The notes: generated from the sequence alone by a model not told the origin. 33,750 bases of DNA from a virus (IMGVR_UViG_2778261166_000006:1-33750); one strand, 5' to 3'; positions 3,397-4,092 are shown, numbered from the stretch's first letter. Program-made: numbers and translations.

Positions 3397-3831
3397 ATGT
3401 CCGGTAATATCTACACGCTGTACAAATCCCACTGTGAAAATGTTGGAAAGTATCGGGGCATTGAAATCAGTGGGGTAGTGTCATCAGTCGAAATAAGCAA
3501 AGTCGAATCAAGGGCAACATTACTTACTCTTCTGGACCTTGTCTTACATGAGCACCGGAAGAAATTCGGCACTCCCTATAATCAGTTGAATGGGAAAAAG
3601 GCTCTGGTTCACCTTATTCTGATGAAGCATCACTGGATGCCAAAACAGATTAATGAGATGAAATTTGATGAACTTCTTCTTTCAATTCAGGATGAACTCA
3701 CACTTGATAAAATAAGCGTAACCGCCCAGAAATTTTTAGATTATCGAGACTGGAGATCACAAATTCATCACTTTGATGATTTTGACGAAAATGAATGGGA
3801 TCCTAATTTGTCTGCACAATATCTAAAGTAA
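3397..3831 (+). CDS. Hypothetical protein (144 aa), AT-rich accessory gene between xis and cI
   Basis: Intact ORF with AAAGGAAAAG upstream of the ATG; preceded by the direct repeats; a plus-strand terminator lies about 240 nt downstream. No recognisable domain. Confidence 0.5.
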   Translation: MSGNIYTLYKSHCENVGKYRGIEISGVVSSVEISKVESRATLLTLLDLVLHEHRKKFGTPYNQLNGKKALVHLILMKHHWMPKQINEMKFDELLLSIQDELTLDKISVTAQKFLDYRDWRSQIHHFDDFDENEWDPNLSAQYLK

Positions 3832-4009
3832 CATCCTGTGATAAAACCGTGATTTCCTGATCCAGTTTTTTTAAGGAGTCTATTATTTCCTGTCGATAAG
3901 ACAGCACTTCACGAAGCTGGTTTATAGCTGCCAGCTTCTTTGCCATCCACTCGTAAATTTCCTCATTTGTGTATCCGGGCGCGACGATTTTGGGTTCTGT
4001 TTTGTGCAT
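3803..4009 (-). CDS. Small hypothetical protein (68 aa), first gene leftward of cI
   Basis: Strong Shine-Dalgarno GAGGAGG 5 nt upstream of the ATG at 4009; 3' end overlaps the convergent 144-aa ORF by 29 nt; translation MHKTEPKIVAPGYTNEEIYEWMAKKLAAINQL... Confidence 0.45.
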   Translation of the reverse strand: MHKTEPKIVAPGYTNEEIYEWMAKKLAAINQLREVLSYRQEIIDSLKKLDQEITVLSQDVTLDIVQTN

Positions 4010-4067
4010 TTCACACCTCCTCAAGTTATCAGTTACTTGTTGATGGGGACCAGATTGTTAAAGAGCT

Positions 4068-4092
4068 AAGCGTCCTGTAGGGCGCTTTTTTG
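4068..4092 (+). terminator. Rho-independent terminator-like hairpin with T-run
   Basis: AAGCGTCCTGTAGGGCGCTT followed by TTTTTT. Confidence 0.45.

What the first reader, a model, noticed from the sequence alone, without database searches (positions are those of the whole stretch)
3397..4092. Convergent overlapping pair of small accessory genes between xis and cI
A 144-aa plus-strand ORF and a 68-aa minus-strand ORF overlap at their 3' ends by 29 nt. The small gene has a strong GAGGAGG ribosome-binding site and lies immediately leftward of the OL-like operator repeats, where lambda has N. A plus-strand terminator sits on the far side of it. Neither protein has a domain I recognise, and the usual recombination and kil genes of lambdoid phages are absent here, so this is the only cargo in the early-left arm. 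Candidates include superinfection exclusion, a toxin-antitoxin-like pair or a regulatory module.
Basis: seen in the sequence. Interest (0 to 1): 0.45.

Follow-up and report, generated by a model that had tools for sequence, protein, structure and literature searches.

The report
Conserved convergent prophage gene pair
Two small genes of unknown function that face each other just downstream of a prophage's early-left promoter are a two-gene unit kept together across many enterobacterial prophages, with the larger gene against the phage's own transcription and the smaller with it wherever the flanking genes were read; what the unit does is still untested.

Summary
ORFs 3397-3831(+) (144 aa) and 3803-4009(-) (68 aa, GAGGAGG RBS) overlap by 29 nt. 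They lie between xisE and the cI/ymfK repressor of an e14/SfIV-like E. coli prophage.

The 144-aa protein belongs to NCBIfam NF033230 'ECs1072 family phage-associated protein'. It has no Pfam, PADLOC, PDB or fold match. The 68-aa protein is predicted as one long helix.

New here: the two genes form a conserved module.
- Homologs of the large gene at 25-40% identity were found in Serratia, Klebsiella, Pantoea, Xenorhabdus, Sakai Sp4 and viral contigs.
- All of these carry a convergent, 3'-overlapping homolog of the small gene.
- The module sits in three different prophage slots: after pL, between cII and O, and between Q and holin.
- In every locus whose flanks were read, the large gene runs against the local phage operon and the small one runs with it.

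In this window the pair occupies an exchangeable cargo socket. The socket is framed by repeats, an exact rrn-type boxA and a plus-strand terminator.

Best reading (inferred, about 0.35): the large gene is a lysogen-expressed accessory protein, probably intracellular phage exclusion. The small gene is its lytic-phase antagonist, repressed by cI. Function remains untested.

The parts
3397..3831 (+). ECs1072-family gene (144 aa), oriented against the pL operon
   Evidence: ORF. NCBIfam NF033230 157.8 bits against a cutoff of 70. phrog_5286 E 1.5e-90. AF2 model all-alpha, pLDDT 82.5. Polymorphism enriched at third codon positions. 76 clusters of relatives in 1.84e9 representatives.
3803..4009 (-). 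Partner gene (68 aa, single long helix), first ORF of the pL transcript
   Evidence: ORF. phrog_1744 E 1.8e-33. AF2 helix 15-67, pLDDT 87.6. An HMM built from 7 partners of distant modules hits only this ORF among the 357 ORFs of the window, E 8e-10 with the next hit at 0.1.
4016..4022 (-). Shine-Dalgarno GAGGAGG of the partner gene, 6 nt before ATG 4009
   Evidence: Sequence. 14 of the 42 haplotypes carry GAGGAGA at this site.
3796..3805 (.). Near-palindrome TGGGATCCTA at the centre of the convergent overlap. It encodes the invariant W134-D-P of the large protein. On the other strand relatives read W-D-P; here the equivalent codon is the partner's TAG stop.
   Evidence: Sequence; comparison of 11 modules.
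3323..3381 (+). Left frame of the cargo socket: two direct copies of CTGGTTAT(T)CCCCAACAAC directly upstream of the large gene's RBS
   Evidence: the repeat finder D1 and I1/I2. The same left frame is shared by four different cargo types.
4037..4056 (.). Right frame: inverted copy of the same motif
   Evidence: the repeat finder I1 (20 nt, 75%) and I2 (14 nt, 93%). An inverted copy is present in all four cargo types. The arms can pair with dG -18 to -31 kcal/mol.
4055..4066 (-). Exact rrn-type boxA GCTCTTTAACAA in the pL leader
   Evidence: The only exact match in the window. Fits the consensus GYTCTTTAANA of PMC5725501. Retained with all four cargo types and at least 4 immunity types.
4068..4093 (+). 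Intrinsic terminator for plus-strand (anti-pL) transcripts: hairpin plus T-run. On the pL RNA the same hairpin directly precedes boxA.
   Evidence: Terminator scan; sequence.
4094..4165 (-). Conserved untranslated pL leader
   Evidence: About 70 nt upstream of the hairpin are near-identical across loci whose operator sequences differ.
4171..4204 (-). pL promoter (-35 at 4204..4199, -10 at 4182..4177) with OL repeats GGGTACATT at 4171 and 4191
   Evidence: The region 4095-4930 is 98.4% identical to K-12 e14.
3713..3728 (-). Weak terminator-like hairpin on the pL strand, inside the antisense of the large gene
   Evidence: Terminator scan: 6 pairs, 3 of them G-C. Function not shown.
3064..3286 (-). 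STnc100-like sRNA downstream on the pL strand (a neighbour, not part of the pair)
   Evidence: Rfam RF02076 43.1 bits (gathering 47), E 4e-8, full-length match.
4244..4918 (-). cI-type repressor (ymfK, LexA-like S24 peptidase) that controls pL
   Evidence: Pfam PF00717 E 1.5e-26; RefSeq annotation ymfK.

Best explanation
The two ORFs are one conserved prophage accessory module with strand-opposed expression.

Shown:
- The 144-aa ECs1072-family gene is encoded against the direction of the phage operon it sits in, in every locus whose flanks were read.
- The small helical partner is encoded with that operon, and the two converge with overlapping 3' ends.
- In this window the partner is the first ORF behind pL/OL, which the cI/YmfK repressor should control.
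- The pair occupies an exchangeable socket that supplies a plus-strand terminator and, on the pL strand, a boxA.

Inferred:
- In the lysogen pL is repressed. Only the ECs1072-family protein is made, from a weak or factor-dependent promoter in the left frame, and its transcript stops at the 4068-4093 terminator.
- On induction or infection, pL transcription produces the partner and runs antisense through the large gene. This shuts the large gene off by collision and RNA duplex formation, while the partner protein neutralises the pre-made large protein.
- The boxA lets RNA polymerase cross the roughly 900 nt of untranslated antisense RNA without Rho termination.

Most likely role: the large protein is a cytoplasmic, lysogen-expressed function directed against other phages (exclusion or abortive infection), and the partner is the phage's own self-immunity factor.
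For: Module conservation:
- ECs1072 relatives at 25-40% identity have a convergent, overlapping partner homolog in Serratia L131, viral contigs L132-L136 and Sakai Sp4.
- An HMM built from those partners finds the window ORF uniquely, E 8e-10.
- The reverse test also holds. Partner homologs from Klebsiella, Pantoea and Xenorhabdus each have a convergent ECs1072-family gene, E 1e-41 to 1e-49.
- In E. coli the two genes occur in 422 and 423 of 5426 genomes.
- Among the 118 fetched loci that carry the same leader and hold at least 200 nt downstream of it, the counts are 87 both, 30 neither and 1 cut by the contig end.

Orientation: the large gene is anti-oriented and the partner co-oriented in three kinds of slot. 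These are after pL (this window, L009, L144), between cII and O (Sakai), and between Q and holin, downstream of a tR'-like terminator in L151 and L154/L155.

Independent transcription unit:
- The plus-strand terminator is present here.
- Terminator-like hairpins for the large gene are embedded in the partner ORF in L152 and L156.
- GC dips to 34-40% in the cargo.

pL control by analogy: K-12 e14 has 98.4% identical cI, OL and pL. Its pL-proximal gene ymfJ is induced late in SOS (log2FC 4.8), while the anti-oriented ymfI is only weakly induced (PMC11002266; PMC2634741).

Expression without induction: Sakai ECs1072 gave a growth-phase-dependent microarray signal in uninduced culture (PMC2241611).

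boxA: an exact consensus match. boxA protects long untranslated RNAs from Rho (PMC7665894).

Protein properties: both are soluble by composition, GRAVY -0.47 and -0.39.
Against: - No sigma-70-like plus-strand promoter was found upstream of the large gene. Expression in the lysogen is therefore not shown for this locus.
- Each gene can persist without an intact mate. L008 has the large gene only. Salmonella L151 has the partner with only a remnant of the large gene.
- In the most distant subfamily (L137-L148) the convergent partner is a different, non-homologous helical protein.
- No protein-protein interaction was tested.
- The E. coli partner is truncated relative to the usual length of about 85 aa.
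Confidence: 0.35

Rival explanations
1. The module is a regulator of the phage's own development. The main function lies in convergent transcription: the anti-oriented transcript acts as a brake on leaky pL, pR or late transcription in the lysogen. The small helical protein would be a CIII-like or other early modulator.
For: The conserved feature is geometry: anti-orientation and 3' overlap, in three operon contexts. Unrelated convergent pairs occupy the same slot in e14, SfV and SfII. The partner's helix shows a loose resemblance to the lambda CIII helix; this is recalled from memory and was not tested.
Against: Both proteins show coding-type conservation, with invariant H72 and W134 across 38 relatives. 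That would not be expected if only transcription mattered. The slot also accepts single plus-strand cargo with no partner, and related phages do without the module. Pfam Lambda_CIII did not match.
Confidence: 0.2
2. The module is a toxin-antitoxin-like or addiction pair. One product harms the host and the other neutralises it, which stabilises the prophage.
For: It is a tight two-gene unit of small cytoplasmic proteins that moves between prophage slots. 3'-overlapping convergent transcripts are the geometry of some type I systems (established knowledge).
Against: The genes are not co-transcribed, so the type II definition is not met. The small protein is hydrophilic with no membrane segment (GRAVY -0.39; helix model), so it is not a type I toxin. 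No known toxin or antitoxin fold or family matched. Either gene is found alone in some genomes.
Confidence: 0.15
3. The large gene is an ordinary lysogenic-conversion moron that alters host physiology or virulence, and the small gene is an unrelated early phage gene that happens to abut it.
For: The SfIV authors list the 144-aa ORF (ORF36) among SfIV-unique unknowns and possible virulence candidates (PMC3851460). The cassette has moron signatures: a terminator, low GC, and presence/absence among related phages.
Against: Co-conservation of the two genes with fixed geometry, at 25-40% identity and in three slots, argues against independence. The family was found only in prophage or viral contexts.
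Confidence: 0.15
4. The small ORF is not a gene. The region is only the 3' UTR and terminator of the plus-strand gene together with the pL leader.
For: SfIV and some phage records do not annotate it. Frameshifted variants exist around an A7 run.
Against: It has a strong RBS at the right spacing and third-position-biased polymorphism. There are 206 database clusters of homologs in Enterobacterales, and homologs recur beside distant modules.
Confidence: 0.04

Closest known systems
NCBIfam NF033230 'ECs1072 family phage-associated protein' / PHROG 5286 (with PHROG 1744 for the small gene)
   Same: The 144-aa protein is a full-length member: 157.8 bits against a cutoff of 70, and phrog_5286 E 1.5e-90. 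The founding member ECs1072 of Sakai prophage Sp4 has the same convergent partner.
   Different: The family is a 'hypothetical equivalog' with no function. The partner gene and the paired, strand-opposed architecture are not part of its description. The partner is not annotated in the Sakai RefSeq record.
Morons / lysogenic-conversion cassettes of lambdoid phages (Hendrix-type definition; for example lambda bor or the Q-to-lysis cargo zone)
   Same: An anti-oriented gene with its own terminator, low GC, present or absent between otherwise near-identical phages, and sitting in known cargo zones.
   Different: It is a two-gene unit in which the second gene belongs to the phage operon strand and overlaps the first. 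No consensus promoter was detected.
Prophage defence with cognate self-immunity (P22 SieB/Esc, BTP1 BstA/aba; from established knowledge, not tested here)
   Same: Proposed logic only: a lysogen-expressed function plus a phage-borne element that spares the phage's own lytic cycle.
   Different: No sequence or structural relation was tested or found. Here the proposed immunity would come from a separate convergent gene rather than an in-frame product or a DNA site. No exclusion phenotype is known.
e14 ymfI/ymfJ, SfV 81-aa ORF/orf33, SfII 63-aa/68-aa ORFs
   Same: Same slot between the yfdP-upstream region and pL. Same geometry: a plus-strand ORF converging on and overlapping a pL-proximal minus-strand ORF, with overlaps of 63, 83 and 39 nt. 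ymfJ is SOS-induced via the same repressor.
   Different: The proteins fall in different PHROG families or have no match; I saw no resemblance by eye and ran no pairwise comparison. These cassettes lack the boxA-hairpin frame. Some of the SfV and SfII ORFs are unannotated and could be spurious.
rrn-type boxA antitermination (rrn leaders; CRISPR-array leaders, PMC7665894; suhB, PMC5725501)
   Same: An exact boxA consensus in an untranslated leader, preceded by a hairpin as in rrn (boxB then boxA), ahead of a long untranslated stretch.
   Different: It sits behind a phage pL. No N homolog, lambda-order nut site, or second boxA on the pR side was found. Nus-factor binding is untested.

Membership tests
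NCBIfam NF033230 phage_ECs1072 | Whole-protein HMM score above the curated cutoff (70 bits) | tested here: met
   157.8 bits, E 1.7e-46, profile positions 2-142 of 142.
Moron (autonomous accessory cassette in a phage genome) | Present or absent between otherwise closely related phages, with sharp boundaries | tested here: met
   Replaced between 3328 and 4097 relative to SfV/SfII, and between 3382 and 4049 relative to PhiR29_1. Four cargo types share one frame.
Moron (autonomous accessory cassette in a phage genome) | Own terminator | tested here: met
   Plus-strand hairpin 4068-4087 plus T-run.
Moron (autonomous accessory cassette in a phage genome) | Own promoter | tested here: inconclusive
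   No plus-strand sigma-70-like site in 2850-5300 at 9 of 12 or better. Only repeats lie upstream.
Moron (autonomous accessory cassette in a phage genome) | Base composition deviating from the flanks | tested here: met
   GC 0.34-0.40 at 3600-3900, against 0.56-0.59 at 3000-3300.
Type II toxin-antitoxin system | Two co-transcribed adjacent genes; a toxin or antitoxin of a known family | tested here: not met
   The genes are convergent. No Pfam, NCBIfam or PADLOC TA family matched. No fold match.
Type I toxin-antitoxin system | Small hydrophobic membrane toxin plus an overlapping antisense RNA | tested here: not met
   The 68-aa protein is hydrophilic (GRAVY -0.39, pI 4.97) and predicted as a soluble long helix. 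Only the 3'-overlap geometry is shared.
Lambda N-type antiterminator | Arginine-rich N-terminal RNA-binding motif; nut site with boxA followed by boxB on both the pL and pR sides | tested here: not met
   No Arg-rich motif (sequence) and an acidic pI. The hairpin precedes boxA, and no second exact boxA exists in the window.
Lambda CIII (Pfam PF02061) | Match to the family profile | tested here: not met
   No Pfam match at E <= 0.1.
Known anti-phage defence systems (PADLOC-DB v2) | Match to any component model | tested here: not met
   0 families for both proteins.
HEPN or HD-domain helical enzymes (weak fold neighbours) | Significant fold match and a conserved Rx4-6H or H...HD motif | tested here: not met
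rrn-type boxA element | Consensus GYTCTTTAANA in an untranslated leader downstream of a promoter | tested here: met
   GCTCTTTAACAA at 4066..4055(-), about 105-115 nt downstream of the predicted pL start.
rrn-type boxA element | NusB/NusE binding and Rho-resistant elongation | not testable with these tools
   Needs ChIP or in vitro binding, and transcript analysis with and without bicyclomycin.

The most novel reading that the evidence does not exclude
Strand-opposed convergent pairs would be a general, previously unrecognised class of prophage 'lysogeny versus lysis' toggle. In each pair, one gene is read against the phage operon in the lysogen and its partner is read with the operon in lytic growth. 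ECs1072/partner would be the most widespread family, acting as an intracellular anti-phage effector with a dedicated self-immunity protein. Unrelated pairs (ymfI/ymfJ, the SfV and SfII pairs) would be functional analogues swapped into the same pL-proximal socket. The socket itself would be kept transcribable by an N-independent, rrn-like boxA.
Probability: 0.2. Interest if true: 0.7.

Novelty: new variant of a known kind. Interest (0 to 1): 0.5.

Why it matters
About 8% of complete E. coli genomes (422 of 5426) carry this exact cassette. Relatives are spread through Salmonella, Klebsiella, Citrobacter, Enterobacter, Serratia, Pantoea and Xenorhabdus prophages. Both proteins are still annotated as hypothetical, and the small one is often not annotated at all.

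Recognising them as one module with fixed strand logic gives a concrete, cheap experiment: clone the large gene with and without its partner and challenge with phages. That experiment could add a new prophage-borne exclusion and self-immunity system.

The pL-leader boxA suggests that this phage group, which lacks an N homolog, borrows the host's rRNA-type antitermination to read through anti-oriented cargo. This can be tested with Rho inhibitors and boxA point mutants.

Tried and rejected
- N analogue: rejected. The small protein has no Arg-rich motif, is acidic and forms a single helix, and no nutR counterpart exists.
- CIII-like: no Pfam match.
- Known defence or TA families: PADLOC, Pfam and NCBIfam are negative, as is Pfam on 38 family members.
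- HEPN or HD idea from weak fold neighbours: rejected on motif conservation.
- Inverted repeats as an RNA helix with cargo-specific covariation: the arms can pair on either strand (z -2.6 to -7.1), but cross-type pairings are as stable as cognate ones, so covariation is not supported. I saw no reversed cassette among the loci I read, but orientation was not tallied. I considered a resemblance to DnaA boxes and judged it too weak (by eye, not tested).
- Profile scans of genome contigs with diverse alignments failed for lack of conserved peptide stretches. The narrower scan gave only 3 loci.
- A scan with P0100 found nothing.
- Homology between the MNVTTE-type partner of the distant subfamily and the main partner family: not detectable, hhalign probability 0.9%.
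- Literature searches for the protein accessions, PHROG ids and 'ECs1072' gave only one microarray table.

Full report
CONTEXT. The window is an E. coli lambdoid prophage of the e14/SfIV/SfV type.
- Region 2900-4250 is 100% identical to the E. coli TUM1880 chromosome and 98.8% identical to Shigella phage SfIV.
- RefSeq annotates intE, xisE, a 'frameshifted hypothetical', an 'ECs1072 family phage-associated protein', a hypothetical protein, and then ymfK (LexA-family repressor), ymfT (cro-like) and ymfL (cII-like).
- Pfam confirms Peptidase_S24 for cI, Exc for xis and Phage_CP76 for the cII-like gene.

- ORF 3397-3831(+) is 144 aa. The minus-strand ORF 3803-4024 has an ATG at 4009, which gives 68 aa. 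The overlap is 29 nt.
- GAGGAGG lies at 4022..4016, 6 nt before that ATG.
- A near-consensus pL (TTGACA-16-CATAAT) lies at 4204..4177. It is interleaved with two GGGTACATT repeats at 4171 and 4191. Just beyond it is the cI terminator at 4232..4213.
- A plus-strand intrinsic terminator lies at 4068-4087 with a T-run. Its stem has a G.U pair on the plus strand and a C.A mismatch on the minus strand, so it serves transcripts coming from the 144-aa gene.
- Both ORFs look coding. Across 42 haplotypes, polymorphic sites fall 12/31/53 (codon positions 2/1/3) in the large gene and 6/9/17 in the non-overlapped part of the small one.

WHAT THE PROTEINS ARE.
The large protein is a full-length member of NCBIfam NF033230 (157.8 bits, cutoff 70) and PHROG 5286. 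Both are 'unknown function' families.
- It has no Pfam or PADLOC match.
- A search of 1.84 billion representatives found 76 clusters, all single-domain proteins of about 145-155 aa.
- An alignment of 38 of them has invariant H72 and W134 and near-invariant L50, R54, G66, A69 and W80.
- None of the 38 has a Pfam domain, and the profile finds nothing in PDB sequences.

The small protein belongs to PHROG 1744. It is predicted as one long helix spanning residues 15-67, pLDDT 87.6. It is acidic and hydrophilic, so it is neither N-like nor a membrane peptide.

THE PAIR IS A CONSERVED MODULE (the main new result).
In E. coli the two genes are found in 422 and 423 of 5426 complete genomes, but those copies are more than 95% identical, so linkage there is trivial. 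The informative cases are distant relatives.
- Homologs of the large gene at 25-40% identity each have a convergent minus-strand ORF overlapping their 3' end. These are in Serratia quinivorans (L131), five viral contigs (L132-L136) and the founding member in Sakai prophage Sp4 (ECs_5703). The convergent ORF carries a shared N-terminal motif, (K/Q)xP(Y)(I/F)FNPGxSxExLxxW(L/M), followed by a helical stretch.
- An HMM built from those seven partners, excluding the window's protein, finds ORF 3803-4024 as the only hit among all 357 ORFs of the window (E 8e-10; next best 0.1).
- The reverse test also works. A profile search found 206 partner clusters across Enterobacterales. For partners from Klebsiella, Pantoea and Xenorhabdus, the adjacent convergent gene is an ECs1072-family member (E 1e-41 to 1e-49).
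- Exceptions exist. L008 has the large gene without a partner. Salmonella DT104 L151 has the partner with only a remnant of the large gene. The most distant subfamily (L137-L148) has a different helical convergent ORF with no detectable homology.

STRAND LOGIC. The module occupies three kinds of prophage slot:
- directly after pL (this window, E. albertii L009, L144);
- inside the pR operon between the cII-like gene and O (Sakai);
- between the Q antiterminator and the holin (Serratia, Klebsiella, Pantoea, Xenorhabdus, Salmonella). A tR'-like terminator was seen just upstream of the partner in the Pantoea and Salmonella loci.

In every locus whose flanking genes were read (the flanks of L134-L136 were not), the large gene runs against the local phage operon and the partner runs with it. 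In L152 and L156 a terminator-like hairpin for the large gene is embedded antisense in the partner ORF. The centre of the overlap is the near-palindrome TGGGATCC. It encodes the invariant W-D-P of the large protein and, in several relatives, W-D-P of the partner on the other strand. In this window that codon is the partner's TAG stop, so the E. coli partner (68 aa) is shorter than the usual length of about 85 aa.

THE SOCKET.
- Compared with SfV and SfII, the window differs between 3328 and 4097. Compared with PhiR29_1, it differs only between 3382 and 4049.
Together with loci fetched earlier, 124 held loci carry the motif. Of the 118 with at least 200 nt downstream, 87 have both genes, 30 have neither, and 1 is cut off by the contig end.
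- By the first 25 nt downstream of boxA, 93 loci carry the pair-type cargo, 22 a PHROG-1244 gene, 5 a variant of that gene, and 4 a PHROG-3983 gene. All the alternative cargoes are on the plus strand.
- Each cargo is bounded on the left by a CTGGnTATCCCCAACAAC-type motif (two direct copies, 3330-3350 and 3361-3381) and on the right by an inverted copy (4037-4056).
- The arms could pair in RNA of either strand (dG -18 to -31 kcal/mol), but I found no cargo-specific covariation. Their role (recombination joint, protein site or RNA helix) is open.
- On the pL strand the hairpin is followed immediately by GCTCTTTAACAA (4066..4055). This is the only exact match in the window and a perfect fit to the gamma-proteobacterial boxA consensus GYTCTTTAANA (PMC5725501).
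- About 70 nt of leader upstream of the hairpin are conserved across loci with at least four different operator sequences.
- Downstream of the partner's stop, the pL transcript is untranslated for about 900 nt (antisense cargo plus the sRNA region). boxA/Nus complexes protect long untranslated RNAs such as CRISPR arrays from Rho (PMC7665894). I therefore infer N-independent, rrn-like antitermination here. No N homolog and no second boxA were found.

EXPRESSION, BY ANALOGY.
- K-12 e14 shares cI, OL and pL at 98.4% identity. In the same slot it has an unrelated convergent pair, ymfI(+)/ymfJ(-), with a 63-nt overlap.
- ymfJ, the pL-proximal gene, is induced late in the SOS response (log2FC 4.8, protein detected), whereas ymfI changes little (PMC11002266; PMC2634741). 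The 68-aa gene should therefore be cI-repressed and damage-inducible.
- Sakai ECs1072 gave a growth-phase-dependent signal in uninduced cultures (PMC2241611), which is consistent with expression from the prophage.
- No sigma-70-type plus-strand promoter was detected upstream of the large gene. Its promoter is therefore unknown.

MECHANISM.
Shown: module conservation, strand opposition, 3' overlap, a pL-proximal partner, a terminator for the plus strand, and boxA.
Inferred: the large protein is made in the lysogen. On induction, pL (elsewhere pR or the late promoter) makes the partner and drives RNA polymerase antisense through the large gene. That silences the large gene while the partner neutralises the existing protein. 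The likeliest biological role is an intracellular exclusion or abortive-infection function with self-immunity (confidence about 0.35).
Rivals: a developmental brake acting mainly through convergent transcription (0.2); a TA-like addiction pair (0.15); an ordinary conversion gene next to an unrelated early gene (0.15); a non-coding small ORF (0.04).

NOVELTY. The large family is catalogued but uncharacterised. The SfIV paper lists ORF36 (the 144-aa gene) and ORF35 as unique unknowns and does not annotate the small gene (PMC3851460). I found no paper on the pairing or on either protein. I rate it a new variant of a known kind (prophage accessory cassette or antagonistic pair), of moderate interest. 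Interest would be higher if the exclusion and self-immunity reading, or the generality of strand-opposed pairs in this slot (e14, SfV, SfII), is borne out.

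Noticed in passing
window 3064-3286 (-): STnc100-like sRNA (Rfam RF02076): 43.1 bits, just under the gathering score of 47, E 4e-8, full-length match. It lies under spurious ORFs (K-12 'ymfH'; PGAP 'frameshifted hypothetical') in the GC-rich region upstream of yfdP, which is conserved among SfV, SfII, SfIV and ST64B-like phages.
   Followed up: partly
window 4055-4165 (-): An exact rrn-type boxA sits directly after a hairpin in a pL leader that is conserved across at least four immunity types. No N homolog and no second boxA were found. 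This suggests N-independent Nus-factor antitermination of the early-left transcript.
   Followed up: partly
window 3323-3381 and 4037-4056: Direct and inverted copies of CTGGnTATCCCCAACAAC frame an exchangeable cargo socket. Four cargo types were seen among the fetched loci that carry the same boxA-hairpin leader. Whether the repeats act as a recombination joint, a protein site or a long-range RNA helix is unresolved.
   Followed up: partly
L150 (K-12 e14) 5498-6085; L003 (SfV) 3423-3882; L007 (SfII) 2908-3267: The same slot in other phages holds convergent, 3'-overlapping ORF pairs from different protein families: ymfI/ymfJ, an 81-aa ORF with orf33, and a 63-aa with a 68-aa ORF. The recurring geometry may be a design principle of this slot.
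   Followed up: partly
window 6161-6349 (+): An isrK Hfq-binding RNA (63 bits) and a C4 antisense RNA (82 bits) lie inside ORF 5801-6637 (Phage_ASH; annotated 'immunity region' in SfV). This looks like a P1 immI/Gifsy-like RNA-controlled module in the early-right operon.
   Followed up: no
window 353-1297 (-): A 314-aa ORF has a weak GIY-YIG-like N-terminus and a C-terminal HTH-like region. It sits left of intE, where e14 carries lit, and next to an IS1 remnant in the matching genome. It is a candidate cargo or defence gene.
   Followed up: no
window ~2904-2944: This is the junction where xisE meets the region upstream of yfdP.
   Followed up: partly
window 3864-3871: An A7/T7 run lies inside the small gene. 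Databases hold frameshifted C-terminal variants, including the E. albertii copy. They may be sequencing errors or real slippage.
   Followed up: no
L137-L148 (viral contigs), about 3176-3592 (-): The most divergent ECs1072 subfamily is paired with a different helical convergent ORF (MNVTTE..., 110-151 aa). That ORF overlaps the large gene by 188-308 nt and has no detectable homology to the main partner family.
   Followed up: partly
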